From the IMG/VR virus record IMGVR_UViG_3300018080_008418: a stretch of DNA of 64,000 nucleotides. One strand, written 5' to 3'. A program made the translations under genes and the position numbers. Position 1 is the stretch's first letter, and each line of letters starts with the position of its first letter. The stretch is from a virus. Below, in pieces: positions 676 through 54,823 of the stretch. Under the pieces are notes generated by a model. The model saw only the letters and a program-made list of their open reading frames with translations. It was not told where the DNA came from and ran no database searches.

Positions 676-1052
676 GGGGGGCGCTCCGGTTTCGACTGGG
701 TAGGCTGAACCTGAGTTGCGTGTCGTGGTTGGTCAGCAGGCCACGTAAAAAGCCGACCAAACAATTTTACTTGTCGAAACACCGACATACCGCATGGCTG
801 CGTAAGCTGTGCCGGGTTTAGGAAGCTCGCCCAAGGCGTCCGACAACCCGTCGCAAATTTGGGATAGCCCTGGTTCATGTGGCTACGGCCTGGGTGAAAC
901 AGGTTGTCACTGGTGGACCCGCCGAGTGCGGCCCTGTCGATCTGAACCTTGGTTCACTGTGGTTTGGGTCGGCGAGATTGAACAGTGAACTACACACGTA
1001 GATGCTTGGCGGATGTTACCGCAGGACAGGGGTTCGATTCCCCTCGCCTCCA
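676..1052 (+). ncRNA. ssrA: tmRNA (ssrA)
   Basis: 5' GGGGGCGCUCCGGUUUCGACUGGG resembles tmRNA 5' end; 3' GGACAGGGGUUCGAUUCCCCUCGCCUCCA T-arm/acceptor; acceptor pairs 7 bp with G3:U70; internal tag ORF GCC-GAC...ATGGCTGCGTAA (ADQTILLVETPTYRMAA*); no encoded CCA (ACTT trailer). Confidence 0.65.
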
Positions 1053-1107
1053 CTTGGCTATGCGAAGCTTGCTTTTGCCAGGGCCGCTCCGCATGCCAAA
1101 TTCACGA

Positions 1108-1143
1108 AGCCGCACGGCCTTAGGGCCGTGCGGCTTTTTCTTT
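1108..1143 (+). terminator. rho-independent terminator after tmRNA
   Basis: AGCCGCACGGCC-TTAG-GGCCGTGCGGCT hairpin followed by TTTTTCTTT. Confidence 0.6.
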
Positions 1144-1158
1144 ATCCCACCGCTGGGA

Positions 1159-1186
1159 TTGACATTTTGCCATTTCTGCCTAGAAT
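1159..1186 (+). promoter_or_regulatory. sigma70-like promoter TTGACA-N16-TAGAAT
   Basis: consensus -35, 16-bp spacer, TAGAAT -10. Confidence 0.45.
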
Positions 1187-1373
1187 ATAGTAGCTCTTCG
1201 AGTTCCCCAGGGAACGAGCACGAAGAGGTTTCAGTTGCGGCCCGCCGAGGAGGCTCGCAGGGCACAATCCCACTTCAGCCTGCCGTCACCTCGGTGGGTT
1301 TTTCAAAAAACACAAACGGATTGTACGGGGCACGCCCCGATTATTCCCCCCACCTTGTTTCATGGAGGATAAC

Positions 1374-1649
1374 ATGAAACGTCTTTCTTTGTTGGTGATT
1401 CTGTTGGCTGCCGTTGCATTCGTCGTGGGCTGCCAGCCCGCAGAATCCCAAGGGGCAGAGCCCGCATGCTGCCCGACTGTGTGTGCCGCTGTTGACGGCA
1501 CTTGTTGTCCCGCCACTTGCCACCAGCCCGTGCGAAAGATTGTGCGGGGCGCTGTTTGTGTGGCAACGGCACCCGTTCGATTTGTCGTGGAGAAGAAACC
1601 GGTGCGCCGCTTGTTCTGGCGTGTTCGATGCAGACGATGTTGCTATTAA
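1374..1649 (+). CDS. Cys-rich small lipoprotein (hypothetical)
   Basis: RBS GGAGG upstream of ATG 1374; MKRLSLLVILLAAVAFVVGC lipobox; many CC/CxxC pairs. Confidence 0.45.
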   Translation: MKRLSLLVILLAAVAFVVGCQPAESQGAEPACCPTVCAAVDGTCCPATCHQPVRKIVRGAVCVATAPVRFVVEKKPVRRLFWRVRCRRCCY

Positions 1650-1789
1650 GCGATCTTCTTGGCCAGCCACGGCCATGAAGTTCCTCCTAACCGGACATGG
1701 GCCGTTGGCCCATGCCCGGTTTTTTCATGGATTGACAAACAACACTTCCTGACTTACAATTCTTTGCCGTTCGTTTCTTTCCCCATGCC

Positions 1790-4435
1790 GTGTGTTCAAT
1801 GAAGGAGAACACTGTGAACCCCGAAGGAAAAAGAGAACTTGCATTACCTCCCGGCTCCTACGCCTACATTCAGGATGAAAGCAAGGGGCCAATCCGAGTC
1901 CACGTTGGTGCCAGCGTCATCAACCAAACCGCCCAAGATCGTCCGTGCGTGTACGATCATCAAACACGCCAGTTCAAGCCGGTCGAATTGCATCAGTCCG
2001 TTCGACAGTTCACTCTCGCCGGGGAAGGCGACTACATTGTTCTCGAAAACCCGGCTGCGACCGGGGCGTTCCCCAAAGAAGGAACGACGGAGAACGCCCC
2101 CGAATTGCTGATGGGTCGGAAGCTCAATATTCCGGGGCCGGTCAGCTTCGCCCTGTATCCGGGCCAATGGGCCACGCAGGTGGCGGGCCACAATCTGCGG
2201 TCGAATGAATTCCTCATCGTCCGAATCTACAACGAGGAAGAAGCCGCCAAGAACTGGTCGAAGGCCGTTCTGAAAACTAAAACCGGCGACAGCGAATCGA
2301 CCGAAGAAGAAACGGAAGCGGTCACCAAGTCGGCGGATGAATTGAATTTGACGATGGGCAAGCTGCTCATTATCAAGGGGACGGATGTCAGCTTTTACAT
2401 TCCGCCCACCGGCGTCGAAGTTCTGAAAGACCCGAACACGGGTCAATACGTTCGTCAGGCCGTGACGTTGGAACGCTTGGAATACTGCATCCTCATTGAC
2501 GAGGACGGCAACAAGCGTTACGAGCGGGGACCGCAGGTGGTGTTCCCCGAGCCCACGGAAGAATTCTTCACGAAGGGCGGCAAGCGAAAGTTCACTGCCA
2601 TCGAGTTGAATGAGATCCAAGGCATTCACATCAAGGTCATCGCTCCGTACAACGATGATGGCAGCGCCGTGGATGACCCCGAGAAGGCCGACCACAAGGA
2701 AGGCGACGAGCTTTTCATCAAGGGCGATGAGTGCGCCATCTACTTCCCCCGCCCCGAACACAGCATCATTCGCTACGGTGAGGGGGATCAAAAACAGGAC
2801 AAGCATTACGCTACGGCCATCCCCGTGGGCGAAGGTCGCTACGTGATGAATCGTCGGGACGGCACGATCAAAACGGTGGTCGGCCCGAAGATGCTTCTGC
2901 CCGATCCTCGCTACGAGGTCATCGTTCGCCGCATTTTGTCGGACAAGGAAGTTGATCTTTGGTATCCCGGCAACACCGAAGCCCTGCAATACAACCGACA
3001 ACTTCGTGCGGCCAGTGCTTCGGAAACGGCGCAGTTCGTTTCGGACGATGAACTGCGGGCGAAGCATGCAATTCGTACTCGTGGTGCCACTCGTGGCCTG
3101 GGGGTGCAGACTATCGGTGCAGTGGCCGCTGACATGGCCGACTTCGAGGGCTACGAAGAAGCCGGTTCGGGCATGGTTGGCGAAGAATTCGAGCGACGTT
3201 CCCGACACACCAAGCCTCGCACGCTCACGCTCGACACGAAGTTCGAGGGTGTGCCGAAGATCCAGGTGTGGACGGGTTACGCCGTGATGCTCGTCAAGGC
3301 CAACGGTGACCGTCGTGTTGAAATCGGTCCCAAGCGGATCTTGTTGGACTACGACGAGACGTTGGAAGTTCTGGAGTTGTCCACGGGCAAACCCAAGAAC
3401 ACCGACAACCTGAAGAAGACGGTGTACCTGCGGACCAAGAATAACAAGGTCAGCGACATCGTGATGGTCGAGACCAAAGACCACGCTCCGATCTCCGTGA
3501 AGATGTCCTACAAGGTCAACTTCGAGAACGAACCCACGCTTTGGTTTGACAGCGACAACTACGTCAAGCTGCTTTGCGATCACGTGCGGAGCATGCTCAA
3601 AGGTTCCGTTCGCAAGACCGAAGTCGAAACCTTTTACGGTGACGGCGAAGCCATCGTTCGGGACATCATTCTCGGTAAGAAAGTGCCTCCTTCGGGCGCA
3701 CCTGAGGGTCTCAAGGCCAAGGCCACCCGCCCATTCCTCATCTTTGAGGAGAACGGCATGAAGGTGGCGGACGTTGAAATCCTCGGCATCAAGATCGAGG
3801 ACGATAGGATCGCCCAACTGCTGTCTGGCGCTCAACGTCGCACGGTGGAGCAGAACATCGAACTGAACCGTGCCGAAAAAGATCTCAAGGTGCGAAAGCG
3901 CAAGGAAGAGATCGATCAAGAAATTGCCGAGGCAGAACAGAAGACCGTCAGCCTCAAGAACAAGCTGCAAATCCTCGGCATCGAGGAAACGCAACAGGTT
4001 CAAGCGGCAGCGGCCACCTCCAACCAGCAACGGGAAGAACAGGCCAAGTTGTTGGCAGATCTTCAACAGGCCGTGCAACAAGTGGCGTTTGATGCCGATT
4101 TGGCTCGTCGGAAAGATAACGCTGCCCAAGTGCAGGCCGAAGAGGAAGCCAAGCTTGCCACCGACAAGGCTCGCCTGGAGGCCGAGACGAAGGCAGTCGT
4201 GGACAAGTTTGCCGCAGCCCAACCGGCTTTCGCCGAGTGCATCCTGGCCTTGTCGAATGCCGAAACCCTCACCAAGATCGCTCAGGCGCACAGCGTCGAA
4301 ACCCTCATTGGGGGCGAGAGCGTCGTAGACGCCCTCAAGAAGATCTTCGGTGACGGTGTGTTGCAGGACGGTCTTGGCAACATCACCAACCGGATGAGAG
4401 GCGGCAAGCCCGCCATGGCCAGCCCCAGGGATTAA
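1790..4435 (+). CDS. Major vault protein (MVP) homolog
   Basis: 881 aa; N-terminal repeats resemble vault repeats (LALPPGSYAYIQDESKGPIRVHVG vs MVP IRIPPYHYIHVLD..VSRVEVGP); shoulder-like segment ELSTGKPKN..VMVETKDHAPISVKMSYKVNFE resembles MVP [31 protein letters not shown]; long C-terminal coiled coil. Start uncertain (ATG 1790/1799 or GTG 1815 after AAGGAG). Confidence 0.65.
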   Translation: MCSMKENTVNPEGKRELALPPGSYAYIQDESKGPIRVHVGASVINQTAQDRPCVYDHQTRQFKPVELHQSVRQFTLAGEGDYIVLENPAATGAFPKEGTTENAPELLMGRKLNIPGPVSFALYPGQWATQVAGHNLRSNEFLIVRIYNEEEAAKNWSKAVLKTKTGDSESTEEETEAVTKSADELNLTMGKLLIIKGTDVSFYIPPTGVEVLKDPNTGQYVRQAVTLERLEYCILIDEDGNKRYERGPQVVFPEPTEEFFTKGGKRKFTAIELNEIQGIHIKVIAPYNDDGSAVDDPEKADHKEGDELFIKGDECAIYFPRPEHSIIRYGEGDQKQDKHYATAIPVGEGRYVMNRRDGTIKTVVGPKMLLPDPRYEVIVRRILSDKEVDLWYPGNTEALQYNRQLRAASASETAQFVSDDELRAKHAIRTRGATRGLGVQTIGAVAADMADFEGYEEAGSGMVGEEFERRSRHTKPRTLTLDTKFEGVPKIQVWTGYAVMLVKANGDRRVEIGPKRILLDYDETLEVLELSTGKPKNTDNLKKTVYLRTKNNKVSDIVMVETKDHAPISVKMSYKVNFENEPTLWFDSDNYVKLLCDHVRSMLKGSVRKTEVETFYGDGEAIVRDIILGKKVPPSGAPEGLKAKATRPFLIFEENGMKVADVEILGIKIEDDRIAQLLSGAQRRTVEQNIELNRAEKDLKVRKRKEEIDQEIAEAEQKTVSLKNKLQILGIEETQQVQAAAATSNQQREEQAKLLADLQQAVQQVAFDADLARRKDNAAQVQAEEEAKLATDKARLEAETKAVVDKFAAAQPAFAECILALSNAETLTKIAQAHSVETLIGGESVVDALKKIFGDGVLQDGLGNITNRMRGGKPAMASPRD

Positions 4436-4458
4436 CGGTCGGCCCGCACCACCGCCGA

Positions 4459-4489
4459 GCCCACCCGGCCTAGCCGGGTGGGCTTTTTT
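4459..4489 (+). terminator. rho-independent terminator
   Basis: GCCCACCCGGCC-TAG-CCGGGTGGGC + TTTTTT; same stem reused at 25844 and 36481. Confidence 0.65.
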
Positions 4490-7189: not shown

Positions 7190-7429
7190 GTGAGCATATC
7201 TGAGCGGGTGATCGATGTGATTGCCCAGCAAATAGGGGTGGAGCCCGAGAACGTAAGCAGGTCTTCCACCATGCAATCGTTGGGGGCCGATTCCCTGGAC
7301 ACAGTGGAAGCGGTGATGGAACTTGAGGAAGAGTTCGACATCAGCATCTCCGACGATGCCTTTTCCGACATTGCATGCACCACCGTGGGAGACATCATCG
7401 CCTTTGTTGAGGATAAAACAAACCGATGA
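7190..7429 (+). CDS. acpP: acyl carrier protein
   Basis: 79 aa; LGADSLDTVE phosphopantetheine-attachment motif; GTG start after AAGGAAAA. Confidence 0.8.
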   Translation: MSISERVIDVIAQQIGVEPENVSRSSTMQSLGADSLDTVEAVMELEEEFDISISDDAFSDIACTTVGDIIAFVEDKTNR

Positions 7430-22908: not shown

Positions 22909-23157
22909 ATGGCCAACATGACCCGAGTCCGTGTGGAATTGCGGGAAACCGGAAAGAGCGGTTATTACGACAAGGAAAGACAGTTTAAGGCCATGCATTC
23001 TGCTTTCAAGCGGGCCGTGAATGACGAGGGTATTATTCCTCTCTGGAAGCAAAAACAATTCCACGAGTCCAAGGGAGAGAAACGCCGTCGCAAGAGGAAA
23101 GAGGCGATGCTTAATAGAAGAAAAGAGCAGAATAAACGTAAATACTTGGGAAGGTAA
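22909..23157 (+). CDS. rpsU: ribosomal protein bS21
   Basis: 82 aa basic protein; V.V.......AL..FKR.....G........R..E.P...R..KR pattern of S21; RBS GGAGAGAGG. Confidence 0.6.
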   Translation: MANMTRVRVELRETGKSGYYDKERQFKAMHSAFKRAVNDEGIIPLWKQKQFHESKGEKRRRKRKEAMLNRRKEQNKRKYLGR

Positions 23158-23169: not shown

Positions 23170-23463
23170 ATGGCAAAGAAACAACATGAAATAATGAGCC
23201 TCTCGGTAGAGCCGGATATGGTGGAACTATTAAACACTTCTGCCAAGAAGATGGGGTGGTCACGGTCGGAGTTAGTTCGCCGACTTGTCAGGAAGCACCT
23301 GGATCTTCTGGTTAATGAAGATGAAAAGATTCCGGTGATCCTTAGAGTGCCACAGGAGTTGAAGGGGAACGAGGAAGAGTTGCGAGCGTGGTTGGCCCAG
23401 AAGGTAGAGGGAATTACAGCCGCTCTTTGCAAGCCTCCAGTTGATGGCGGCATCTCTTCTTGA
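23170..23463 (+). CDS. ribbon-helix-helix (CopG/Arc-like) DNA-binding protein
   Basis: MGWSRSELVRRLVRKHL RHH signature. Confidence 0.5.
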   Translation: MAKKQHEIMSLSVEPDMVELLNTSAKKMGWSRSELVRRLVRKHLDLLVNEDEKIPVILRVPQELKGNEEELRAWLAQKVEGITAALCKPPVDGGISS

Positions 23464-23494: not shown

Positions 23495-24010
23495 ATGGAA
23501 ATCGTACCTGTTGAACTCATACCGAAAAAAGACTCTATTGAAAATGCCCCCGAAAATGATCTGGTGGGCGTTTTTAAAATTTGCCAGCAGTTGGAGCAGA
23601 TCTGTACGCTGGAGAACGGTATCGGTCTGTCTGCCGTTCAAGTTGGTTTGCCATGGAGGTTGTTCGCCGTTCGGAACGAAGATGGGCTCTATGACTTCTA
23701 TCTGAATTGTGAGTATAAGCCCGCTTCCGGCGCTGAAAAGGTGGTCACGCATGAGGGCTGTCTGTCTTTGAGGGCGGATGATGGATCACTGCGGAGATTT
23801 CGAGTGGAAAGGTGGGACCGAATCATTCTTTCGGGGAAAAGATTGATTACCGAAGGGAAGCTCGCCCTCAATGATTTGGTGGACGTGGAGATTGGTGATA
23901 CATTATATGCTGTGGTTTTTCAACACGAGATCGACCATCAAGAGGGTATCTTGATTTCTGATCTTGGCGAGGAAATGCACATTTGGGACCGCAGTGAGAG
24001 GAAAAGTTAA
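23495..24010 (+). CDS. def: peptide deformylase
   Basis: all three PDF motifs: GIGLSAVQVG, EGCLS, QHEIDHQEG; start taken at internal ATG after GGAGG. Confidence 0.85.
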   Translation: MEIVPVELIPKKDSIENAPENDLVGVFKICQQLEQICTLENGIGLSAVQVGLPWRLFAVRNEDGLYDFYLNCEYKPASGAEKVVTHEGCLSLRADDGSLRRFRVERWDRIILSGKRLITEGKLALNDLVDVEIGDTLYAVVFQHEIDHQEGILISDLGEEMHIWDRSERKS

Positions 24011-28934: not shown

Positions 28935-30473
28935 ATGCCCAATGTTGCAAACTTTCTTATCGAGAGAATTTCCAATGCCGAGGTTCAACATGTCTTTGGA
29001 TGCGCAGACAGGTTGAGCGACACGTTCTTCAAGAACTTTGATGATAAACTAGAATGCATTTGCACCACAGATGAAAACCATGCGGGGATAGCCGCAGATG
29101 CATATTCAAGGGCCAAGGGAGTGGGTTGTGCATGCATATCCGGACAGCGTGGGGCCCTACAAATCTCCAGTGCTGTTGCATGTGCTTATGCGGAGCACTC
29201 TCCTGTTATTGTCGTTGGCTGCATGCCAGATGGTTTAAGCCAGACTGGTGTTTTCAAAAAAATTACATGTGCTCGCACGAGTCTCGCATCTCCCAACACA
29301 GCGGGTTTTGAGATAGATCGTGTGTTGGAAGAGATGCACTATCATAAGCAGCCGGTTTATATTGAATTGCTTGAAAGCGTGGTGAATAAGCCAATAGCCT
29401 ATGATGTCTACAAGCAGGGCACTCCTACAGCACCCGAGACTGTCCAAAAGAATCTCGATGAAGCTTTAGAAGAAGTGGGTGTCATGTTGGCCCAATCAAA
29501 ACGCCCTCTTATTTGGGCGGGTGTTTTAGTGGCTCGCTTCAGCTTGACGAAAGAACTGGAGAAGTTTGTGGCCAAGACGGGCGTGCCAGTGGTGACCACT
29601 CCTTTGAGCAAGTCGGCCATTAGCGAATTGCATGCTTCTTCTGTTGGCGTGTGTATGGAGAAAGCCACACCAGATCACGTTCGAGAGAAGATCGAAGAGT
29701 CGGATTGTGTAATCGTTTTGGGTTCGGTTGACGGCCTGCGGTTCGTAGATCCTGACAAAAGCGTTGTTGCTTCTGTGGGGCATGTGAAGGTGAAAAATCA
29801 TATCTATCCCTCGGTTGGCTTTCAAGATTTTGTGCGGGCTCTGTTGAAGAGGGAGGATTTGCCCGTCATTACCCCTCAGAGAAGCAGCAAGGTGCGTCCG
29901 TCGTTTACGCCTCAGGATGGTCCAATCACAACGCAGCGATTTTTTGAGAAGATAAATTCCATCTTGAATCCCGATTTGGCGGTTGTCGTAGATTGCGGTG
30001 ACAGCCTGTTTGGCGCAATTGATTTGGTGACAGATCATTACCATTTCTTGTGCCCGGCTCATTATAATAACAGCGGTTTCGCCATTCCCGGTGCCTTGGG
30101 GGCACAGTTGGCGCAACCCAAAGTCCGTCCACTTGTGTTGGTGGGCGATGGCTCATTTCAGAAATCATGCAATGAATTGGGAACAATCGCTGGATTGGGT
30201 CTCAATCCCATTGTCTTGGTCCTGAATAACCGCAGCCATGCTAGTTGCAGGCTGTGGAGTAAAAAGGATGTTCCAGAAATCGCCGAATGGAGCTATCATG
30301 ATATGATTCATGTTGTGGGCGGTGACGGCATCAAGGTACAAGAAGAAAAACATTTGGAGACAGCATTGAGTACAGCGTTACTAGACAAACGCAATCTTCA
30401 CATCATCAACGTGATTGTGGACAAGAAGGATATTTCTCCCGCACTAAAGAGGGCGACAGAAGCCGATGATTAA
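28935..30473 (+). CDS. thiamine-pyrophosphate-dependent decarboxylase (pyruvate/indolepyruvate decarboxylase family)
   Basis: N-terminal Pyr domain like PDC; TPP motif LVLVGDGSFQ...LVLNN. Confidence 0.7.
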   Translation: MPNVANFLIERISNAEVQHVFGCADRLSDTFFKNFDDKLECICTTDENHAGIAADAYSRAKGVGCACISGQRGALQISSAVACAYAEHSPVIVVGCMPDGLSQTGVFKKITCARTSLASPNTAGFEIDRVLEEMHYHKQPVYIELLESVVNKPIAYDVYKQGTPTAPETVQKNLDEALEEVGVMLAQSKRPLIWAGVLVARFSLTKELEKFVAKTGVPVVTTPLSKSAISELHASSVGVCMEKATPDHVREKIEESDCVIVLGSVDGLRFVDPDKSVVASVGHVKVKNHIYPSVGFQDFVRALLKREDLPVITPQRSSKVRPSFTPQDGPITTQRFFEKINSILNPDLAVVVDCGDSLFGAIDLVTDHYHFLCPAHYNNSGFAIPGALGAQLAQPKVRPLVLVGDGSFQKSCNELGTIAGLGLNPIVLVLNNRSHASCRLWSKKDVPEIAEWSYHDMIHVVGGDGIKVQEEKHLETALSTALLDKRNLHIINVIVDKKDISPALKRATEADD

Positions 30474-31017
30474 GAAAAAGAACAAGAAGTTCGGCAGCGA
30501 TCAAAAGAAGTATCCCGTTAGAGTCAATGAAAGGATTCGCTGGTCACCAGTGAGGGTGGTGGATGCCAATGGGGAAAATTTGGGTGTTATTCCCACAAAG
30601 GATGCCCAAGCGATGGCACGAAAGCAAGGGCTTGATTTGGTAGAGGTGGCTCCCAATAGTCGCCCGCCAGTTTGTCGCATTATGGATTATGGGAAGTTCA
30701 AGTACGAACAAAGCATTCGGGAGAAGAAGCAGAGTCAGGGGAACGCCCCAAAGATGAAAGAACTCAAACTCTCCCCGGCTATCGATTCCCATGATCTAGA
30801 GACGAAGTTGGGGATGGCCAAGAAGTTCTTGGAAGCAGGCCATAAGGTCCACTTCCGCCTTCAATTCCGCAAGCGACAAATAGCTCATAAGGACCGAGGC
30901 TTTGATGTAATGAAGAAGGTGGTTGAGGAGTTGGGTGACATAGGAAATGCCACTCAAAAGCCTCAACTAGAGGGCAGGGTGATAACCTGTATGATTGAGC
31001 CGATGAAAGCCAAATGA
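30466..31017 (+). CDS. infC: translation initiation factor IF-3
   Basis: alignable along full length with bacterial IF3 (VRV.D..G..LGV....A...A...GLDLVE..PN..PPVCRIMDYGKFKYE...). Confidence 0.85.
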   Translation: MIKKKNKKFGSDQKKYPVRVNERIRWSPVRVVDANGENLGVIPTKDAQAMARKQGLDLVEVAPNSRPPVCRIMDYGKFKYEQSIREKKQSQGNAPKMKELKLSPAIDSHDLETKLGMAKKFLEAGHKVHFRLQFRKRQIAHKDRGFDVMKKVVEELGDIGNATQKPQLEGRVITCMIEPMKAK

Positions 31018-31018: not shown

Positions 31019-32191
31019 ATGAACAAATTGCCAGGGATTGAGGCGGTCCAAGAGAAGATCATAGAGGGTATTTTTGCTCCTGTTGGTCCGGTGCCTCAAA
31101 AACAACTAGAGGGCATTCTGTGGGAGATCTCCAAGGTAGACGAGGAGATGGCGGTCCTGGCATTTGGCAAGTTGGGGAAACGATTGCGTGATTTTGCTCT
31201 CGTGGTAGATAAAGATCACCCCGACCTTCAATCGGTTTTCGATGGTGAGCTTGCGCCTGATGGTGCGATTTCTAAAAGGTTTTGCGAAATTCTTCGGCTG
31301 TGCCAACATGCCAAAGAGCAGGGGATGACAGAAGTCTTTCCCCATCTGAGCAAAGCTTCTTCTTATGCTCTCCCAAAAGAGTTGAAGTCCATTGATGACC
31401 CCAGGAGGGTGAATCGTTGGATTCGTCTTTTGCGAAGTGAAAAGTTCAAGGCTAGAGAAACGAAGCAGCCCCAAGAAGTGTTTGTTGACCGTCGCCGTTT
31501 ATCGCAGATGTGGGATGCGGTGCCTGATGATTTCGGCATGTTTATGAGATACGATGAGCAATATCGTAATGAAATGAAGATTGCAGAAGAGCAGGCTCGA
31601 CGCTACGAAGAGTTGGGGTGCCCCTCAAATGCTAAGGTGATTCGTGAAGAGATAGAAAAATTCGGCAACCGCTTCAGTCATTGTTATCATGGTTTTCATC
31701 GTATTACGGTTATGGAAGCGGCGCTCATTCTTGCTAAAATGCATGGTGCTAAGTTGGCGCTTGATAAATTGCGGCTGGGTAGCTCGGAGCCGCCCTATGT
31801 TGAATTCGATCAATTTTCTTCTTGGGGCTTAAAGAAATTTGTGCGGGCGGGCATTTCGCCGAGGGAGCTAAGGAAGGGTGAAGCTGGTTACAAACCTATG
31901 GTCTATCCGGCCCATTCGGTTCCAGTACCCAGCGACAAGATGGTGGAGGTGCTCGATTATTTGGAGGGTTACCCTGGGTTGAACAGGCGGTCTCTTTTCG
32001 ACCACGCTTTGGTCGTGTGGCCCGAGGTGGACCTGAGCACCCACTTTAAGTTGTATGAGCGACAGGATGAGAGGGTTTGGGATGTGTTCCAGAGAGAGTG
32101 CTACGATCATCTTGTCCAGCAGAGGGAATTGGTTCCGGTTTTGCTGGGCGAGAGAGATGGGAAGTGTTATTTCATATGCTATTGGATGTAA
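31019..32191 (+). CDS. hypothetical protein
   Basis: 390 aa. Confidence 0.45.
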   Translation: MNKLPGIEAVQEKIIEGIFAPVGPVPQKQLEGILWEISKVDEEMAVLAFGKLGKRLRDFALVVDKDHPDLQSVFDGELAPDGAISKRFCEILRLCQHAKEQGMTEVFPHLSKASSYALPKELKSIDDPRRVNRWIRLLRSEKFKARETKQPQEVFVDRRRLSQMWDAVPDDFGMFMRYDEQYRNEMKIAEEQARRYEELGCPSNAKVIREEIEKFGNRFSHCYHGFHRITVMEAALILAKMHGAKLALDKLRLGSSEPPYVEFDQFSSWGLKKFVRAGISPRELRKGEAGYKPMVYPAHSVPVPSDKMVEVLDYLEGYPGLNRRSLFDHALVVWPEVDLSTHFKLYERQDERVWDVFQRECYDHLVQQRELVPVLLGERDGKCYFICYWM

Positions 32192-32529: not shown

Positions 32530-32886
32530 ATGAGAAAGGTAGTGGATTGTAACCCGGTGGGGTTTACCATTTTAGTGGAGCTTTTGACATCGCAGGAAGT
32601 GTTGGGGACAAGAATTCACGTGGGCGGTGACCAGAAGGTGGGCGCACCGCAGGCGTATATCAGGAAGATTGGTCCGTTTGTCAAAGAGGATAAGGATTAC
32701 AACTTCGAGGTGGGTGACAGGGTTCTGCTCTCTGGCAACTACACCCCTGTCCCGGACATGGAAGGCAAAGGCGAAAACGAAAGAACGTTCGGTATCGTCG
32801 AGCCACATGCCATCAAGGCCGTCTTGTCAGAAGGCGAAGAAGTACCCGAACTAGCAATTGCCCAGAACAAGCTCATTGTTGAATAA
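32530..32886 (+). CDS. GroES-like co-chaperonin (tentative)
   Basis: ~118 aa, beta-rich, VGDRVL motif and position directly upstream of dnaJ; weak. Confidence 0.3.
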   Translation: MRKVVDCNPVGFTILVELLTSQEVLGTRIHVGGDQKVGAPQAYIRKIGPFVKEDKDYNFEVGDRVLLSGNYTPVPDMEGKGENERTFGIVEPHAIKAVLSEGEEVPELAIAQNKLIVE

Positions 32887-33938
32887 TGGACTACTATGAC
32901 ATCCTGGGTGTTAAGAAAGATGCCACGCAGGATGACATCAGTAAGGCGTATCGTCAGAAGGCGATGCGATACCACCCAGATGTCAGCAAGGAAGAGGGAG
33001 CTTCCGAGAAGTTCAAGGAAATTGCTGAGGCGTATGAAGTTCTTAACGACCCGCAGAAAAGAGATCAGTATGACCGCTATGGAACGGTAGGCGCTGCCGG
33101 TCCATCTGCGGGTGGCTTTGATCCGTTTGAGATATTCAACCGGATGCGTCGTGGCCACGGGCGCAGTCGCAAGAGAGGTAGGGACAGGCTTGTTGAAGCC
33201 GAGCTTTCTTTTGAGGAGGCTGTGGCTGGTTGTAACAAAGACATCAAGGTTACCTACAAGGATGCCTGTGAGAAGTGCAAAGGGACCGGTGTCAAGACAT
33301 GGAAGAATTGTGAGACCTGCCAAGGCCGAGGCCGTCAAACCATTCAACAGAGTCCATTCATTCTTGAAGTAGGCTGCACAGCTTGCGGAGGGCATGGACG
33401 GATGCCCGATGAGAAATGTGCAGAATGTAATGGTGATGGTCTAAAAAAGGCAAGGGAAGAAACGGTTACGGTTAAAATTCCCGCAGGTGTTGATACCGGC
33501 ATGCAGGTGCGACTGCTCGGTCTCGGCGATTTCGATTCTACCAATTCTGTACGTGGCGACCTCTACGTCACTCTTAAAATCCAACCACATGAATTTTTCA
33601 CCAGGGAAGGTGTGGATTTGTGGTGTCGTGTTTACGTTCCATACACCAAGTTGGTTCTCGGAACTAAGTTGGATGTTCCCACTTTGGATAAAGTGGTGGA
33701 AGTGAAAATTCCACCAAATACATCGCCGGGCACGAAGCTGCGGTTGAAAGGCCATGGATTGCCGGATATTCATCGTCCAAACCGCCTCGGTGACATCATG
33801 ATTATTGTGGATTTGGACATGCCAAAAGCCAAAGGGGATTACAAAAAGAAGTTGAGAGAACTATCTACATTGGAGGATGAATTCCTCTCGCCACAGCGAG
33901 AGGAATTTAATAACTATGTGGAGCGTATAAGACGATGA
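32886..33938 (+). CDS. dnaJ: DnaJ (Hsp40) co-chaperone
   Basis: J-domain YYDILGV...HPD; four CxxCxGxG zinc-finger repeats. Confidence 0.8.
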   Translation: MDYYDILGVKKDATQDDISKAYRQKAMRYHPDVSKEEGASEKFKEIAEAYEVLNDPQKRDQYDRYGTVGAAGPSAGGFDPFEIFNRMRRGHGRSRKRGRDRLVEAELSFEEAVAGCNKDIKVTYKDACEKCKGTGVKTWKNCETCQGRGRQTIQQSPFILEVGCTACGGHGRMPDEKCAECNGDGLKKAREETVTVKIPAGVDTGMQVRLLGLGDFDSTNSVRGDLYVTLKIQPHEFFTREGVDLWCRVYVPYTKLVLGTKLDVPTLDKVVEVKIPPNTSPGTKLRLKGHGLPDIHRPNRLGDIMIIVDLDMPKAKGDYKKKLRELSTLEDEFLSPQREEFNNYVERIRR

Positions 33939-51157: not shown

Positions 51158-51850
51158 ATGGATTGGTTTACAGCAGACTTGCATTTTAGGCATAACAACA
51201 TTGTAAAGCACAGTCTGCGAACGTTGTTTATGTCGGAGAGTGAAAGAGAAGTAGTTGAAAGAGGCGACCGAAGAGAAATCGAGAGGCTGCGGATCAGTCG
51301 TGAATCGACTGACAGAATGAATGATGGATTCACCGATGAAATCAATCGAGTAGTCCAGCCGCATGACCGACTGTGGATTCTGGGGGATTTTGCTTACCCC
51401 CGAAGAAGCGATAGTCCACATGAGGTTTGTAGAGTGTATCGCTTCTACCGAGAGAGGTTCAATTGCCGGAACGTGGTCCTCGTGTGGGGCAACCACGATC
51501 CGCCAACGGATTCCAAGGCCCGAGATCTGATTAGCAGGGTTTTCAGCAAGACATACGACAAGCTGACAACTAGGGTCGAAGGCCAGAAGATCCACATGAA
51601 CCATGAACCTGTCGCCATCTGGGATGGCCGACATCACGGGGTTTGGCACCTATACGGCCACACCCACAGCAACGGTGAGCCGTGGCTTGAAGAGGTGATG
51701 CCGGGCCGATTTGGGATGGATGTTGGCGTGGATAACGCCTTCAAGATTCTCGGTGAGTATCGACCGTTTTCCTTCAAGGAGATTGGCGACATCATGAGAA
51801 ACAAGTCTGGCTTTGGTTTACTGAAGTCCAGGCAGTACCATCACAATTGA
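51158..51850 (+). CDS. calcineurin-like metallophosphoesterase
   Basis: DLHF.H...LWILGDFAY...VWGNHD...YGHTH motifs. Confidence 0.65.
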   Translation: MDWFTADLHFRHNNIVKHSLRTLFMSESEREVVERGDRREIERLRISRESTDRMNDGFTDEINRVVQPHDRLWILGDFAYPRRSDSPHEVCRVYRFYRERFNCRNVVLVWGNHDPPTDSKARDLISRVFSKTYDKLTTRVEGQKIHMNHEPVAIWDGRHHGVWHLYGHTHSNGEPWLEEVMPGRFGMDVGVDNAFKILGEYRPFSFKEIGDIMRNKSGFGLLKSRQYHHN

Positions 51851-51851
51851 C

Positions 51852-52286
51852 ATGTTTCAATCACAAGGTAAGTTGCGATACAGCCCTCAACTGATCGGTT
51901 CGAGGGCTGATTCTTTTTCATGGTGGCTCGTGGTGGACTGCGATCCAGAGATCGGCAGGTACTACCGACACCTGTATTCTCTTGCGCATAATAAATGTCG
52001 AAATCTCCTGCGCCCTTCTTGGCGTGAGCATATTTCTGTCATCAGAGATGAAGAGCCACCCGAGAACAAGAAGCATCTGTGGAAAAAATACGATGGTCAG
52101 GTGGTGATTTTTCGATACCGCCCGGAAATCGACCACGATGGACTGTATTTCTGGCTGGATGTGGAATGCGATTTCTTGCTGGATTTACGGGTGGAAATCG
52201 GTCTGTCGAGACACCCGGAATACTCCCTCCACCTGACGGTGGGGAATGCCAGATTTCCAAACTCTCCAGTTTCACAATTGGAATAG
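51852..52286 (+). CDS. hypothetical protein
   Basis: 144 aa. Confidence 0.4.
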   Translation: MFQSQGKLRYSPQLIGSRADSFSWWLVVDCDPEIGRYYRHLYSLAHNKCRNLLRPSWREHISVIRDEEPPENKKHLWKKYDGQVVIFRYRPEIDHDGLYFWLDVECDFLLDLRVEIGLSRHPEYSLHLTVGNARFPNSPVSQLE

Positions 52287-52334
52287 CCTGTGCTACAATA
52301 TCATTGGCTATTTTGCAAGAGGATGTAAGTTGTT

Positions 52335-52556
52335 ATGCCAAAAGAAGATTCAATCGAGTCCACCGGTACAGTGGTGGAAGCACTCAGGGATAGTAAATTT
52401 CGTGTCCAGTTGGACGAAACAAATCATTTGGCCCTTTGCACGCTGGCGGGGAAGTTGAGGAAGCACTTTATCCGCATCGTGCCCGGTGACAAGGTAAAGG
52501 TGGAGTTGAGTCCATATGATTTATCTCGTGGCCGGATTACCTACAGGAATAAATGA
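52335..52556 (+). CDS. infA: translation initiation factor IF-1
   Basis: 73 aa; near-colinear with bacterial IF1 (KEDSIE..GTVVEAL....FRV.L.......GK.RK..IRI..GDKV.VEL.PYDL..GRI..R). Confidence 0.85.
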
Positions 52557-54823
52557 ACATGAGTGAGATCAAGAAGCAGTGTGACGAACTTGAAGTTGTC
52601 ATTGTCCACTTGGACACGGAGTATGAGTTGGGCAATGACTGCATGCTTCCCGATGACGTATCGGACTGGCTGTGTGAGGAGTTTGGCGTTGATCCGGACG
52701 TTCCGGTGCCCGATTCTCGTTACGACGCCATGCGTCGATTCTTGAAAGACAATCGCCCCGACTCCAAGATCCTCAAGACCGCCACCGCTTCCAAAGTGGA
52801 CAGTGCTGCCAAGAAGGTGGTGCATGATCCACCGCTCACATCTATCGAAAAAGCAGGGCACGAAGTATTGGCCAAGAAGGAGGGCATGCTTTTTAAGTGG
52901 CTGTTTGATCGCACAGGCCAAGCCGACGACGCTGTTCGCAAAGGCCCGGTGTACGATCTGGATGAGAAGGAGTTGCCAGAAGTTGATCCCAAAACCAAGA
53001 AGCCGACTGGTAAAAAGGTTAAGCACGACAAGCGGATCTACGACCCTGATCTTACGCCCGGCATCCCCTCGAAATTTCACGGCAAGGTTGTCACCTACCC
53101 CCGAGGGGATTACTTTTCCATGTCCTACAAGTGGGACGGTGTGGCGCTGGCGTTGTACTATGAGAACGGCAAATTGGTGCGAGCCGGTCTTCGCCCCAGA
53201 GATGGCGTCAACGGCGAAGACGTTACGGAGAACGTCAAGTACGTGAAGGGCATCCCTCAAACGTTGCCTGAGCCTCTCACCATTCGCATCACCGGCGAGT
53301 TGATCTGCCCGAATTCCGAATTCCCCAAGGTTCAAGCTTGGAAGAAGAAGCAGAAGGAAAAGGAATTCGCCAACACCCGAGCGGCCACTGTGGGCGGCAT
53401 TCGACAGTTTAAGGAGCCTGAAAAAACCAAACACCACCGTTTGATCTTCTGTGGCTACGGTGTTGAGGGCCACAACAATCCGCCGTACAAGACGGAAGTG
53501 GAAAGGGCTAAGTGGTGTAACCAAGTGTTGAAGGTGAAGTTCGTTCAGACCTTGCCTTTTGATTTTTATATCCTGGCCTTTATGGAAGCGCACGCTCCCC
53601 ACCTGGATTATGAAGTGGATGGTGTTGTGATCTCCGTTAACAATCTGGAGGCCCAGGAACAGTGCGGTCGCCATGGCGATCCGAAGACCGGCAACCCCAA
53701 GGGCAAGGTGGCGTGGAAGTTTGCAGAGGAAGTTGCCGAGCCGCCCTTGAAGAGCCTGGATTGGCAGGTCGGTCGAACCGGTGTCATTAAACCGGTTGCC
53801 AACTTCGATCCCGTTCGACTCGCTGAAACCGATGTTCGCCGTGCCACGTGTCACAATCTCGGCTTCTTGAAGAAACACAGGATCGATGTCGGCACCGTCT
53901 TGAGGGTGCTGAAAGCAGGGAAAATTATCCCGAAAGTGATTGGAGTGGCAAAAAATCCATGTTCTGGCGAACCTTCTTACCCGAAGGAGTGTCCATCTTG
54001 TAGGGAGAAGACCACCGTGCGTCATTCTCCCGCCAAAGGCAAGCAAGAAGAGAAGTGGGAGTTGGTGTGTGAGAACCCGAATTGTCCAGCACGCCAACTG
54101 AATACCTACACCCACTATCTGCAAAAACTGGGGGTCTTGGGCCTGGGTGATGCGACCGTGACGGCGCTGCTGGCATCAGGGGTGTTGAAGTCACGAGCGG
54201 ATTACTATGAACTGGATGAGGCGAAGTGCAAGGCTGCTGGTTTCTCTGATCGAGAGGGCCTGTTGATCCTGGGTGGAATCTTGATGATTCATGATCCCTC
54301 CCACGAGGACGACGCCGCCCTCCGTAAAAAGATTGCGGTGGCCCAAACGGACAAGTTGTCGATTCCGGCTTGGAAGTTCTTCGCCGCTCTCGGCATCCCC
54401 ACCGCTGGCGAATCGGCAGGCAAGGCGTTGGTGGATCACTTTGGCGACTTCGATGCCATCCGACAGGCGACTGCGGATGAACTGGAAGCCGTGGACGAGA
54501 TCGGCCACAAGACTGCCGGTATTGTTGCGACATACCTGGAAGAGCATGCGGACGAGATCGATGCTTTGTTGACGCACATTGAATTGGAGTTGCCGAAGCA
54601 GGGTAAGTTGAGTGGCAAGACGTTTTGCCTCAGCGGCAGTTTCACCGAAGGAAAGAAGCACTGGCAGGACGCCATCGAGGATGAAGGTGGTAAGTGCGTG
54701 GGGAACGTGAGCAAGAAATGCGACTACCTTGTGGCTGGGCCTGGGTCCGGTTCCAAGAGCGAGAAAGCTGACAAGTTGGGCATTCCAATCCTTGACGTGA
54801 AGGGGCTCCAGAAACTTCTGTGA
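52553..54823 (+). CDS. ligA: NAD-dependent DNA ligase
   Basis: KxDG adenylation motif (YKWDGVA), Cys4 zinc finger, HhH region, C-terminal BRCT. Confidence 0.85.

What the first reader, a model, noticed from the sequence alone, without database searches (positions are those of the whole stretch)
676..54823. Unusually complete translation-takeover gene set for a phage-like element
Recognisable by sequence: tmRNA (676-1052), bS21 (22909-23157), peptide deformylase (23495-24010), IF-3 (30466-31017), IF-1 (52335-52556), DnaJ plus a GroES-like protein (32530-33938), several tRNAs and a sigma factor. Phage bS21 and PDF are known. IF-1 and IF-3 together are not, to my knowledge, commonly reported, and suggest re-programming of initiation on phage mRNAs.
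Basis: partly seen in the sequence, partly recalled or inferred. Interest (0 to 1): 0.7.

Follow-up and report, generated by a model that had tools for sequence, protein, structure and literature searches.

The report
Huge-phage translation genes, a known kind
This window is part of a huge bacteriophage genome that really does carry its own tmRNA, ribosomal protein bS21, peptide deformylase, initiation factors IF-1 and IF-3, chaperone helpers and tRNAs. That combination is already documented in published huge phages, so the gene set is ordinary for its kind, and the odd part is that several of its tRNA genes are interrupted by a conserved small structured RNA element.

Summary
These are tmRNA (Rfam 130 bits), bS21, PDF with intact catalytic motifs, a full two-domain IF-3 (infC equivalog 172.6 bits), IF-1 (infA equivalog 96.4 bits), type-I DnaJ, a divergent Cpn10/GroES-like protein (confirmed by fold) and a sigma factor.

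The element is a huge phage. It has virion genes and is syntenic with about 11 large phage contigs, including the published 595-kb genome LR756511.1. In all nine relatives examined, bS21, PDF, IF-3, Cpn10-like and DnaJ sit in the same gene order at 35–65% amino-acid identity. The set is therefore an old, vertically inherited clade feature.

The novelty claim fails. Al-Shayeb et al. 2020 list IF1, IF3, S21, PDF and tmRNA in huge phages. Cultured phages (AP-J-162, Phosso) carry similar sets. Selective reprogramming of initiation is untested, and both factors look canonical.

By-catch: the tRNA array at 59.6–61.1 kb has at least six tRNA genes, three to four of them interrupted in the D-arm region. 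The insert is a conserved ~54-nt two-helix element that shows covariation, is absent from Rfam, recurs in about 30 metagenomic contigs and in LR756511.1, and restores a detectable tRNA when removed in silico.

The parts
677..1055 (+). tmRNA (one-piece). The inferred tag is VETPTYRMAA.
   Evidence: Rfam RF00023, 130.1 bits, full length. The tag was read by eye from the alignment. No SmpB was found among the ORFs scanned.
22909..23157 (+). Ribosomal protein bS21 homologue
   Evidence: Pfam 36.9 bits and NCBIfam 30.1 against 28.95. An ortholog sits at the same syntenic position in all 9 clade loci, found with a clade HMM at E 1e-20 to 1e-38.
23170..23463 (+). Small conserved protein between bS21 and PDF, weakly CopG/RHH-like
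   Evidence: PHROG transcription-regulator families at E 3e-4 to 2e-3. Conserved in every relative.
23495..24010 (+). Peptide deformylase (the ORF could also start at TTG 23441)
   Evidence: Pfam Pep_deformylase 59.5 bits. Motifs GIGLSAVQ, EGCLS and HEIDH are present. Syntenic in all relatives.
28935..30473 (+). TPP-dependent decarboxylase/acetolactate-synthase-like enzyme, always directly upstream of IF-3. Its stop overlaps the IF-3 start by 8 nt.
   Evidence: Pfam TPP_enzyme N, M and C domains. NCBIfam indolepyruvate/phenylpyruvate decarboxylase 225 bits, below the cut-off. The adjacency is conserved.
30466..31017 (+). Translation initiation factor IF-3, full two-domain protein with an ATG start
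   Evidence: Residues matching E. coli Y75, D106, K110 and H137 are invariant in the clade. All nine clade orthologs start at ATG.
31019..32191 (+). Clade-specific 390-aa protein of unknown fold that follows IF-3 in most relatives
32530..32886 (+). Divergent Cpn10/GroES-like co-chaperonin (comparable to T4 gp31)
32886..33938 (+). Type-I DnaJ (J domain, zinc-finger domain, C-terminal domain)
   Evidence: Pfam 92.9, 37.4 and 145.7 bits. NCBIfam DnaJ_bact 338.6 bits against a cut-off of 377.
45174..45716 (+). Small sigma-70-family (ECF-sized) sigma factor
   Evidence: Sigma70_r2 46.9 bits and a weak r4 hit. Syntenic in L020.
52335..52556 (+). Translation initiation factor IF-1, directly upstream of an NAD-dependent DNA ligase (52553-54823)
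   Evidence: The same position, between a metallophosphoesterase and the ligase, is seen in L020, and L024 shares the upstream genes.
59652..59791 (+). tRNA-Phe(GAA) gene interrupted in the D-loop by a ~67-nt element (about 59665-59731)
   Evidence: The acceptor (GGACGGG/CCCGUCC) and D stem (GCUU/AAGC) pair across the insert, with compensatory changes in L208 (GGAGGGG/CCCCUCC, GUUU/AAAC). ARAGORN calls Phe-GAA after in-silico excision.
60050..60188 (+). tRNA-Asn(AUU)-like gene interrupted by the same element (the element ends at 60128)
60258..60379 (+). tRNA-Trp(CCA)-like gene interrupted by the same element (the element ends at 60326). ARAGORN does not recognise it after excision.
   Evidence: Read by eye. 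Element hits. Negative ARAGORN result.
60410..60479 (+). Intact tRNA-Arg(UCU). Its 5' end abuts the 3' half of the element, and the 5' half of the element lies downstream.
   Evidence: Rfam 51.4 bits. ARAGORN. Flanks.
60826..60953 (+). tRNA-Arg(ACG) gene interrupted by the same element (the element ends at 60892)
60985..61059 (+). Intact tRNA-Leu(AAG) with C33 and an A1:A72 mismatch, flanked by the same half-elements

Best explanation
The window is a stretch of a huge tailed-phage genome from the clade that contains the published 595-kb genome LR756511.1. It carries auxiliary translation and protein-folding genes that this clade has inherited vertically for a long time.

Shown:
- tmRNA, bS21, PDF, IF-3, IF-1, DnaJ, a Cpn10-like protein and a sigma factor are genuine, intact family members.
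- bS21, PDF, IF-3, Cpn10-like and DnaJ keep the same gene order in all nine clade loci examined, despite only 35-65% amino-acid identity. IF-1 keeps its place in the two relatives where that region was recovered.

Inferred, from the established roles of these families:
- The phage makes its own copies so that translation capacity holds up after host gene expression is shut down or damaged during a long infection by a very large genome.
- IF-3 and IF-1 would keep a pool of free, initiation-competent 30S subunits and enforce canonical AUG/Shine-Dalgarno starts, which the phage genes use.
- bS21 would complete 30S platforms. PDF would process the burst of new N-termini. tmRNA, with host SmpB, would rescue ribosomes stalled on broken mRNAs.
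- DnaJ and the Cpn10-like protein would recruit host DnaK and GroEL to fold phage proteins. tRNAs would top up decoding.
- Phage IF-3 starts at ATG and is translationally coupled to the upstream gene. It therefore probably escapes the rare-start-codon autoregulation of bacterial infC.

Any bias towards phage mRNAs would be a quantitative side-effect, not a new specificity.
For: - Gene identities.
- Phage nature: virion structural protein phrog_1645 at 3.6e-78, a head-decoration-like protein, and PhoH.
- Synteny with L001, L002/L003, L004, L005, L015/L019 and L016 (IMG/VR contigs up to 572 kb), with LR756511.1 (L030), and with MAG-binned contigs L033-L035.
- bS21 ortholog in all nine clade loci.
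- The IF-1 locus is syntenic in L020 and L024, and L020 and L004 come from one contig that carries both IF-1 and IF-3.
- Canonical IF-3 residues and ATG starts.
- Shine-Dalgarno motifs upstream of 36 of 81 ORFs against a 15% background, and ATG in 61 of 81 starts.
- Published precedent: PMC7162821, PMC11242549, PMC11895373.
Against: - There are no expression or functional data, so 'supplementation' cannot be separated from 'selective takeover' by sequence alone.
- PDF and DnaJ fall below the NCBIfam equivalog cut-offs, and bS21 passes only marginally, so divergent function cannot be excluded.
- No SmpB, GroEL or DnaK was found in the window. The tmRNA and co-chaperones must therefore work with host partners, which is assumed, not shown.
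- The host is unknown. The MAG labels of related contigs disagree with one another (Chloracidobacterium, Bacteriovoracaceae, Myxococcales).
- tmRNA conservation across the clade could not be tested.
Confidence: 0.8

Rival explanations
1. Selective reprogramming. Phage IF-1, IF-3 and bS21 would assemble phage-specific 30S initiation complexes that prefer phage mRNAs over host mRNAs.
For: - Three initiation-related proteins co-occur and are conserved across the clade.
- Phage IF-3 has lost the AUU-type start.
- Several basic residues in the IF-3 C-terminal domain vary within the clade (R99, R112, R116, R129, R131).
Against: - IF-3 and IF-1 align end to end with bacterial factors. The residues tied to start-codon fidelity (Y75, D106, K110, H137) are invariant.
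- Phage genes use ordinary AGGAG-type Shine-Dalgarno motifs and mostly ATG, so no special mRNA signal is visible for a modified 30S to recognise.
- The variable Arg positions also vary among the Thermus and Geobacillus IF-3s.
Confidence: 0.15
2. Counter-defence spare parts. The copies would replace host translation components that are cleaved or inactivated by abortive-infection systems. tmRNA would clear ribosomes stalled on mRNAs cut by toxin or CRISPR RNases, and the phage RNA-ligase-like gene would repair cut tRNAs.
For: - The window also has an RNA-ligase-like protein (39184-40908, weak Pfam hit), a DHH phosphoesterase and a metallophosphoesterase.
Against: - To my knowledge, no defence system is known that targets IF-1, IF-3 or bS21.
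- The RNA ligase hit is below the Pfam cut-off (20.7 bits against 27).
- Nothing in the window links these genes to anti-defence loci, though PADLOC was not run.
Confidence: 0.1
3. Not a phage. The window would be a fragment of a small-genome bacterium or a megaplasmid, and the translation genes its ordinary housekeeping set.
For: - Related contigs are binned into bacterial MAGs.
- Al-Shayeb et al. note that large plasmid-like elements carry analogous gene suites.
Against: - Virion structural genes are present.
- There is no infC-rpmI-rplT arrangement. IF-3 lies between a TPP enzyme and an orphan gene, and IF-1 between a phosphoesterase and a ligase.
- No rRNA or other ribosomal protein genes are present.
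- Most ORFs have no Pfam family.
- The relatives are IMG/VR viral contigs and LR756511.1, 'uncultured phage'.
Confidence: 0.03
4. Decaying passenger genes recently picked up from a host, with no role in infection.
For: The tmRNA end of the window (1-12 kb) has higher G+C (50-56%) than the core (45-50%), which is compatible with a later acquisition of that part.
Against: - Orthologs keep their position and remain intact ORFs at 35-65% identity across at least nine diverged genomes.
- Catalytic and binding motifs are intact.
- The closest IF-3 relatives are other unnamed metagenomic (phage-like) proteins. Named bacterial IF-3s appear only from about 50% identity and come from several phyla.
Confidence: 0.02

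Closest known systems
Huge phages of Al-Shayeb et al. 2020 (Nature 578:425), in particular LR756511.1 (595,163 bp)
   Same: The order DNA polymerase ... PDF ... TPP enzyme - IF-3 - orphan ... Cpn10-like - DnaJ is conserved with the window at 26-71% amino-acid identity, and a bS21 ortholog sits at the same place. IF-1 is present elsewhere in that genome, and the same tRNA-insert element occurs there in 10-11 copies. The paper lists IF1, IF3, S21, PDF and tmRNA as huge-phage genes.
   Different: There is no nucleotide-level similarity over window 28000-52900 (megablast found nothing). The window phage is a separate, diverged member. IF-1 lies in a different context in LR756511.1. Membership of the named 'Mahaphage' clade was not tested, because the window has no terminase or capsid tree marker.
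Cultured jumbo rhizobiophages AP-J-162, Phosso and Atu_ph07 (470-490 kb)
   Same: AP-J-162 is reported to have tmRNA, IF-3, bS21, PDF and DnaJ in one genome. Phosso is annotated with IF-3 and S21, and tblastn with IF-1 found one Sinorhizobium phage record.
   Different: IF-3 is only 35% identical and sits in another context, next to ClpX and topoisomerase. There is no synteny with the window. They also carry bL12 and 33-66 tRNAs.
Phage T4 gp31 / GroES (Cpn10 family)
   Same: The protein at 32530-32886 has the Cpn10 fold. T4 gp31 (1g31_A, 2cgt_O) and GroES are among the top structural matches.
   Different: Sequence identity is 13-21%. The window protein itself has no direct Pfam hit. A mobile loop and GroEL binding were not tested.
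Phage bS21 (Mizuno 2019; Chen et al. 2022) and cyanophage PDF (Frank 2013)
   Same: These are single translation-related auxiliary genes in phages, with the proposed roles of competing for the 30S platform and sustaining N-terminal processing (references listed; paper found).
   Different: Here both genes sit two genes apart in a clade-conserved block, on the same strand as the flanking genes. I did not study expression timing.
'Enigmatic' tRNA introns of Lak megaphages (Devoto et al. 2019, Nat Microbiol 4:693)
   Same: These are phage tRNA genes that are too long for tRNA finders and are restored when an internal segment is removed. The authors also predicted at least 4 intron-bearing tRNAs in a 595,573-bp phage and suggested that introns are common in large phages.
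   Different: That paper gives no shared intron motif or structure. The element described here is a defined ~54-nt two-helix RNA with conserved loop sequences, inserted in the D-arm region instead of the anticodon loop, and it also flanks intact tRNAs. Whether the Lak introns belong to the same class was not tested.
Theta (HDV-like) ribozymes next to phage tRNAs (Kienbeck et al. 2024)
   Same: These are small structured RNAs physically joined to phage tRNA genes and proposed to take over tRNA end processing from host RNases.
   Different: Theta ribozymes sit within about 5 nt of the tRNA end, with a proposed role in 3'-trailer processing, and have the HDV double-pseudoknot fold. The element here lies inside the 5' half of the tRNA or upstream of it. 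It is a simple stem, internal loop, stem and tetraloop, and no Rfam ribozyme family matched it. Self-cleavage is untested.

Membership tests
Bacterial IF-3 (infC) | Both the N-terminal and C-terminal IF-3 domains, joined by a Lys-rich linker, scoring above the curated equivalog threshold | tested here: met
   IF3_N 111.1 bits, IF3_C 97.8 bits, TIGR00168 172.6 bits against a cut-off of 60. Aligns over 160-170 residues to IF-3 of Thermus, Geobacillus and E. coli.
Bacterial IF-3 (infC) | Residues implicated in start-codon and initiator-tRNA discrimination and in 30S binding (E. coli Y75, K110, R131/R133, R168; the residue roles are recalled from the literature) | tested here: met
   In the window protein Y75, D106, K110, R131, R133, H137 and R168 are identical, R116 and R147 are replaced by K, and R99, R112 and R129 are substituted (the first two as in Geobacillus and Thermus respectively). 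Y75, D106, K110 and H137 are invariant in the phage clade.
Bacterial IF-3 (infC) | Rare start codon (AUU/AUA) for autoregulation, and the thrS-infC-rpmI-rplT context | tested here: not met
   The window and all eight clade relatives examined start at ATG. The neighbours are a TPP enzyme upstream and an orphan protein downstream. This is a feature of the bacterial operon, not of the protein family.
Bacterial IF-1 (infA) | Single S1-like OB-fold protein of about 72 aa scoring above the infA equivalog threshold, not just a generic S1/OB hit | tested here: met
   TIGR00008 96.4 bits against 61.15. eIF-1a 76.8 bits. The other OB families (RsgA_N, RNase II S1) score below their cut-offs. End-to-end alignment to solved IF-1 structures.
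Ribosomal protein bS21 | S21 domain above the curated thresholds | tested here: met
   Pfam 36.9 bits against 27. TIGR00030 30.1 bits against 28.95, which is marginal. Ribosome incorporation cannot be tested with these tools.
Peptide deformylase | The three metal-binding and catalytic motifs G-x-G-x-A-A-x-Q, E-G-C-L-S and H-E-x-x-H | tested here: met
   GIGLSAVQ, EGCLS and HEIDH are seen in the translation. Pfam 59.5 bits against 22.8. The protein scores below the NCBIfam equivalog cut-off (51.3 against 103.95), so it is a divergent member.
tmRNA (SsrA) | tRNA-like domain, pseudoknots and an internal tag reading frame ending in a hydrophobic ..AA degron. SmpB is the required partner. | tested here: met
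   Full-length RF00023 match at 130 bits. The tag VETPTYRMAA was read by eye. No SmpB was found among the scanned ORFs, so it is presumably host-supplied (inference).
Cpn10/GroES co-chaperonin | Cpn10 beta-barrel fold and family-level sequence signal | tested here: met
   15 of 24 close homologues hit PF00166. A clade profile hits Cpn10 chains at E 7e-4. hhalign against GroES gives probability 53%, E 1.3e-4. The top 35 Foldseek hits are Cpn10, GroES, Hsp10 and gp31. GroEL binding was not tested.
Type-I DnaJ/Hsp40 | J domain with HPD, a Cys-rich zinc-finger domain and the C-terminal substrate-binding domains | tested here: met
   PF00226 92.9 bits, PF00684 37.4 bits, PF01556 145.7 bits. Just under the DnaJ_bact equivalog cut-off, 338.6 bits against 377.2. 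I did not inspect the HPD tripeptide or the Gly/Phe-rich region.
LR756511-like huge-phage clade | Shared gene order over tens of kb, with orthologs of clade-specific proteins | tested here: met
   15-25 collinear orthologs per locus in most of the syntenic loci. The orphan protein family at 31019-32191 is rare (19 members), with several members on contigs of 200-634 kb. No terminase or capsid phylogeny was possible from this window.
Group I tRNA introns (for the tRNA insert) | A ribozyme core of 200 nt or more (P3-P9), inserted in the anticodon loop | tested here: not met
   The insert is 45-75 nt and lies in the D-arm region, with a 5' exon of 7-24 nt. There is no Rfam intron hit.
HDV-like / theta ribozymes (for the tRNA insert) | Nested double-pseudoknot fold, with the cleavage site at the ribozyme's 5' end abutting the tRNA 3' end | tested here: not met
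   No HDV-family hit lies on the elements at E<=1; the only one, a weak CPEB3 match, is on the opposite strand and away from them. The supported structure is two coaxial helices with an internal loop. The position is inside or upstream of the tRNA. A pseudoknot was not searched for systematically.
Archaeal-type bulge-helix-bulge tRNA introns (for the tRNA insert) | Two 3-nt bulges separated by a 4-bp helix at the exon-intron junctions, and a splicing endonuclease | not tested
   The exact splice junctions are ambiguous, because many boundary combinations restore a tRNA. No endonuclease gene was looked for.

The most novel reading that the evidence does not exclude
The tRNA genes of this phage clade carry a previously undescribed class of small intron-like RNA element.

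- It is a ~54-nt module: a 6-bp helix closes a conserved internal loop (..CGACUU / CCCCUAC..), followed by a 6-bp tetraloop hairpin and a UACAAAC tail.
- It sits at varying positions in the D-arm region of many tRNA isotypes. In split form it brackets intact tRNAs.
- It would be removed, or would direct end-processing, by a phage-specified route that does not depend on the host's usual tRNA maturation. Candidates are self-cleavage or a dedicated endonuclease plus ligase.
- If so, the phage's translation takeover would extend to a private tRNA maturation system.
Probability: 0.35. Interest if true: 0.75.

Novelty: new member of a known kind. Interest (0 to 1): 0.3.

Why it matters
For the finding as given, the value is confirmatory.

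- It adds one more diverged member to a huge-phage clade.
- It shows that bS21, PDF, IF-3, a Cpn10-like protein and DnaJ form a fixed, syntenic, long-conserved block, with IF-1 keeping its own place in the relatives where that region was recovered. That pattern argues for selected function, not accidental capture.
- It does not open a new question, because the co-occurrence of IF-1 and IF-3 in phages has been in print since 2020.

The by-catch could matter more. A defined, covarying RNA motif that interrupts dozens of phage tRNA genes gives the 'enigmatic introns' of megaphage tRNAs a concrete sequence and structure. That structure can be synthesised and tested for self-cleavage or splicing. 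It also means that tRNA counts in huge phages are underestimated by standard finders.

Tried and rejected
Searches that led nowhere:
- Megablast of 25 kb against the phage collection found nothing, and an exact 59-mer scan of IMG/VR also found nothing, so the source genome is not in those collections.
- Single-protein related-locus scans with the DNA ligase and with the vault-like protein found nothing, because the chosen peptides were not conserved.
blastn with the tmRNA found only T-arm-sized matches. I therefore could not say whether the tmRNA is conserved in the clade.
- The promoter and terminator scan was uninformative: 18 promoter-like sites against 18.2 expected.

Host inference failed:
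- The MAG labels of related contigs disagree with one another.
- Named bacterial IF-3 relatives, at about 50% identity, come from several phyla.

The orphan protein after IF-3 (31019-32191):
- I suspected a hidden translation factor. The AF2 model is confident, but it matches nothing in the PDB.

Ideas considered for the tRNA insert:
- Hammerhead, HDV-like and group I assignments were rejected (no Rfam hit, wrong size or topology).
- A DNA-level REP/IS200-type hairpin reading is disfavoured, because G·U pairs and GNRA/UUCG loops are specific to the tRNA-sense strand.
- A promoter with +1 at the tRNA 5' end is not excluded for the copies that abut intact tRNAs.

Full report

Yes. Rfam places a full-length tmRNA at 677-1055 (130.1 bits; gathering score 47), although ARAGORN does not call it. 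Reading the alignment by eye, the tag frame is GUC GAA ACA CCG ACA UAC CGC AUG GCU GCG UAA (VETPTYRMAA). That is ten codons ending in a hydrophobic-Ala-Ala tail, like ordinary degradation tags.

Pfam and NCBIfam scans of the named ORFs give the following:
- bS21 (22909-23157): 36.9 bits, and 30.1 bits against a cut-off of 28.95.
- Peptide deformylase (23441/23495-24010): Pfam 59.5 bits, but below the NCBIfam equivalog cut-off.
- IF-3 (30466-31017): IF3_N 111 bits, IF3_C 98 bits, infC equivalog 172.6 bits against 60.
- IF-1 (52335-52556): infA equivalog 96.4 bits against 61.15.
- DnaJ (32886-33938): all three domains.

The PDF translation shows the three catalytic motifs GIGLSAVQ, EGCLS and HEIDH. 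The sigma factor is at 45174-45716 (Sigma70_r2 46.9 bits). The generic OB families score below their cut-offs, while infA passes its equivalog threshold.

The 'GroES-like' ORF (32530-32886) has no direct family hit, so I tested it separately:
- A profile of eight clade orthologs hits ten Cpn10/Hsp10/GroES chains at the top of the PDB list, best E 7e-4.
- 15 of 24 database homologues hit Pfam Cpn10, and some are named GroES by JGI.
- An AlphaFold model (pLDDT 79.6) has Cpn10, GroES, Hsp10 and T4 gp31 as its top 35 Foldseek matches.

It is a divergent Cpn10.

**2. What is the element?**

It is a phage, and a huge one.
- The window encodes a virion structural protein (phrog_1645, E 3.6e-78), a head-decoration/fibre-like protein, a large DNA polymerase and PhoH. 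It also carries nucleotide- and sugar-modifying genes. Most ORFs have no Pfam family.
- It has no nucleotide-level match in the phage collection over 28000-52900.
- A back-translated search with IF-3 found 19 IMG/VR loci. In eight of them, on contigs up to 436 and 572 kb, 15-25 window proteins have collinear orthologs at 25-81% identity.
- The shared order is g20585 - g21753 - bS21 - small RHH-like protein - PDF - g24010 ... g28096 - TPP enzyme - IF-3 - (orphan g31019) - Cpn10-like - DnaJ ... GT2 ... PhoH.
- The same order holds in LR756511.1, a 595-kb 'uncultured phage' of the Al-Shayeb data set. It also holds in three contigs binned into MAGs with mutually inconsistent taxonomic labels, one of them 546 kb.
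- tblastn missed bS21 in some relatives. An HMM built from the detected copies finds it at the syntenic spot in all nine loci.
- IF-1 lies between a metallophosphoesterase and the NAD-ligase in the window and in L020, and L024 shares the genes upstream of IF-1. L020 is from the same contig as the IF-3 locus L004.

The translation genes are therefore long-standing, vertically inherited members of this clade's core. They are not recent captures.

**3. Do the factors look special?**

IF-3 aligns over its whole length with solved bacterial IF-3s. I mapped E. coli positions onto the clade alignment; the residue roles come from my knowledge of the IF-3 literature.
- Y75, D106, K110 and H137 are invariant. 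Y70 is nearly so. The window protein keeps R131, R133 and R168.
- The substitutions at R99 and R112 are also seen in Geobacillus and Thermus respectively.
- All nine clade IF-3 genes start at ATG. In the window, the start overlaps the stop of the upstream TPP-enzyme gene by 8 nt.
- Bacterial infC is autoregulated through a rare start codon (established knowledge). The phage copy probably escapes that control (inference).

IF-1 is 49-63% identical to the IF-1 copies found in phage-collection records and aligns end to end with solved structures.

Phage ORFs carry AGGAG-type Shine-Dalgarno motifs (36 of 81 against a 15% background) and mostly ATG starts. I see no unusual leader signal. Nothing in the sequences calls for a new initiation specificity.

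**4. Comparison with what is known**

- Al-Shayeb et al. 2020 state that many huge phages carry IF1 and IF3, ribosomal proteins S4, S1, S21 and L7/L12, elongation and release factors, PDF, tmRNA and SmpB. They also say that no huge phage encodes all of them.
- Cultured phage AP-J-162 (471.5 kb) is reported to have tmRNA, IF-3, S21, L7/L12, PDF and DnaJ.
- Phage Phosso is annotated with IF-3 and S21, and tblastn with IF-1 found one Sinorhizobium phage record. The E. coli jumbo phage Sharanji has IF-3.
- PHROGs holds families for both factors.
- The closest IF-3 proteins in a 5.8-billion-protein search are unnamed metagenomic sequences at 50-71% identity. Named bacterial IF-3s, from several phyla, appear at about 50% and below.

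The set is typical for its kind, and the claim of rarity is out of date.

**5. Mechanism**

Best-supported reading (gene identities and conservation shown; function inferred from the families): the phage tops up the parts of the host translation and folding machinery that become limiting during a long, demanding infection.
- IF-3 and IF-1 would keep 30S subunits free and initiation accurate.
- bS21 would complete 30S subunits, and PDF would process nascent chains.
- tmRNA, with host SmpB, would rescue stalled ribosomes.
- DnaJ and the Cpn10-like protein would recruit host DnaK and GroEL.
- The tRNAs would supplement decoding.

A true selective takeover remains possible, but no sequence feature supports it. 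The bacterial-fragment and decaying-passenger readings are contradicted by the virion genes, the gene context and the conserved synteny.

**6. By-catch: interrupted tRNA genes**

The tRNA region (59.6-61.1 kb) lies outside the stated range but is part of the claim. It turned out to be the strangest thing in the window.

*What is in the window.*
- The decamer GCTTACAAAC (at most 1 mismatch) occurs 8 times in 1.3 kb, against 2 elsewhere in the window.
- Reading the sequence, the decamer is the end of a repeated unit: a short helix..CGACUU, a hairpin GGAYRG-tetraloop-CYRUCC, CCCCUAC, about 3 nt, the second strand of the first helix, then UAC AAAC.
- Four tRNA-like bodies have their 5' acceptor strands, and in one case their D-stem strand, about 70 nt upstream of the rest. 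The unit lies in between.
- For tRNA-Phe(GAA), the homologous gene in IMG/VR contig L208 has compensatory changes in both stems across the insert: GGACGGG/CCCGUCC becomes GGAGGGG/CCCCUCC, and GCUU/AAGC becomes GUUU/AAAC. The interrupted gene is therefore under selection to fold as a tRNA.
- In a 239-kb contig (L190), the same unit is inserted after an intact D-arm in tRNA-Gly and tRNA-Arg, so the insertion point moves.
- The two intact tRNAs of the window (Arg-UCU, Leu-AAG) begin exactly at the AAAC of a hairpin-less copy. They are followed by the missing hairpin strand, which gives 10 bp of leader-trailer complementarity.

*How widespread it is.*
- An exact-pattern scan of metagenome contigs found 38 loci, many with 2-5 copies.
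- A covariance model of the hairpin part found 132 hits, 101 of them unique. A second model that includes the outer helix found 91 hits.
- LR756511.1 has 10-11 copies in a ~4-kb stretch (L249 5711-9867); ARAGORN finds only three tRNAs in the 12-kb locus.

*Structure.*
- Pair counts support both helices: 91.5% of cells paired, against 77.9% in shuffles and 30-51% with slid partners.
- The outer helix has 4 of 6 pairs changed on both sides. The hairpin has 5 of 6.
- The alignments were fitted to the model, which favours the structure, but the slid controls are far lower.
- Frequent U·G pairs and GNRA/UUCG loops exist only on the tRNA-sense strand, which argues for an RNA-level structure.

*In-silico excision.*
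- Removing the unit restores an ARAGORN-recognisable tRNA spanning the junction for 52 of 101 units. About 15 isotypes are restored, with 5' exons mostly 7-24 nt long.
- A control with the excision displaced by 30 nt restored 1 of 101.

*Prior knowledge.*
- Rfam 15 has no family for the unit.
- Devoto et al. 2019 reported 'enigmatic introns' in Lak megaphage tRNAs and predicted at least 4 in a 595,573-bp phage, without a motif or a mechanism.
- I found no later paper explaining them.
- Theta ribozymes are a different thing: HDV-like and located at the tRNA end, with a proposed 3'-trailer-processing role.

How the element is removed, or whether it is removed at all, is unknown.

**7. Verdict**

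As a translation-gene set, this is a new member of a known kind and of modest interest. The conserved tRNA-embedded element deserves its own follow-up.

Noticed in passing
window 59652-61149 (+); also L208 3300-4400 (-), L190 2000-3560 (-), L249 5711-9867 (+), L211-L248: A conserved ~54-nt two-helix RNA element interrupts tRNA genes in the D-arm region and brackets intact tRNAs. It consists of an outer 6-bp helix, an internal loop ..CGACUU / CCCCUAC.., a 6-bp hairpin with a GNRA/UUCG loop, and a 3' tail UACAAAC. There are 101 unique copies in about 30 contigs, and both helices covary. In-silico excision restores a tRNA for 52 of 101 units, against 1 of 101 in the control. It is not in Rfam. 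Standard tRNA finders miss the affected genes.
   Followed up: partly
window 60410-60479 and 60985-61059: The two intact tRNAs have an A1:A72 mismatch at the top of the acceptor stem. tRNA-Leu(AAG) has C instead of U at position 33. tRNA-Arg(UCU) has an atypical T-loop (UGUCAAA).
   Followed up: no
window 1790-4435 (+), 7922-9523 (+), 9570-11177 (+): An 881-aa protein has Major Vault Protein shoulder (75.8 bits) and Vault_3 repeat domains. A few kb downstream lie two paralogous SPFH/Band-7 proteins. This 5' part of the window, which also holds the tmRNA, has higher G+C (50-56%) than the rest (45-50%). In relative L034 the SPFH pair is absent between the cpYpsA gene and the DNA polymerase.
   Followed up: no
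window 28935-30473 (+): A TPP-dependent enzyme (indolepyruvate/phenylpyruvate-decarboxylase-like or acetolactate-synthase-like, below all equivalog cut-offs) lies immediately upstream of IF-3 in every clade member, and in the window its stop overlaps the IF-3 start by 8 nt. Its substrate is unknown. The window also has several sugar-nucleotide-type genes (an epimerase/dehydratase, GT2, a dTDP-sugar isomerase-like fragment) and a methyltransferase.
   Followed up: no
[not shown]
   Followed up: yes
window 60558-60782 (+) and L208 (about 3510-3715, minus strand): A conserved 74-aa ORF is embedded inside the tRNA/element array, followed by a G+C-rich terminator-like hairpin (60790-60822). It is conserved in the related array of L208. 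Its function is unknown.
   Followed up: no
window 7426-7932 (+), 54864-55493 (+), 39184-40908 (-): These are a circularly permuted YpsA/SLOG-family protein (112.9 bits), an S-adenosylmethionine lyase family protein (31.5 bits; typically anti-restriction, from my own knowledge) and a 574-aa protein with a sub-threshold RNA-ligase domain. They are possible anti-defence or RNA-repair genes.
   Followed up: no
L158 12518-13366 (beyond the 3' end of the window, same phage): The ENA contig of the same phage encodes a second sigma-factor-like protein (282 aa, Sigma70_r4) shortly past the window's 3' end. The phage therefore has at least two sigma-like genes.
   Followed up: no
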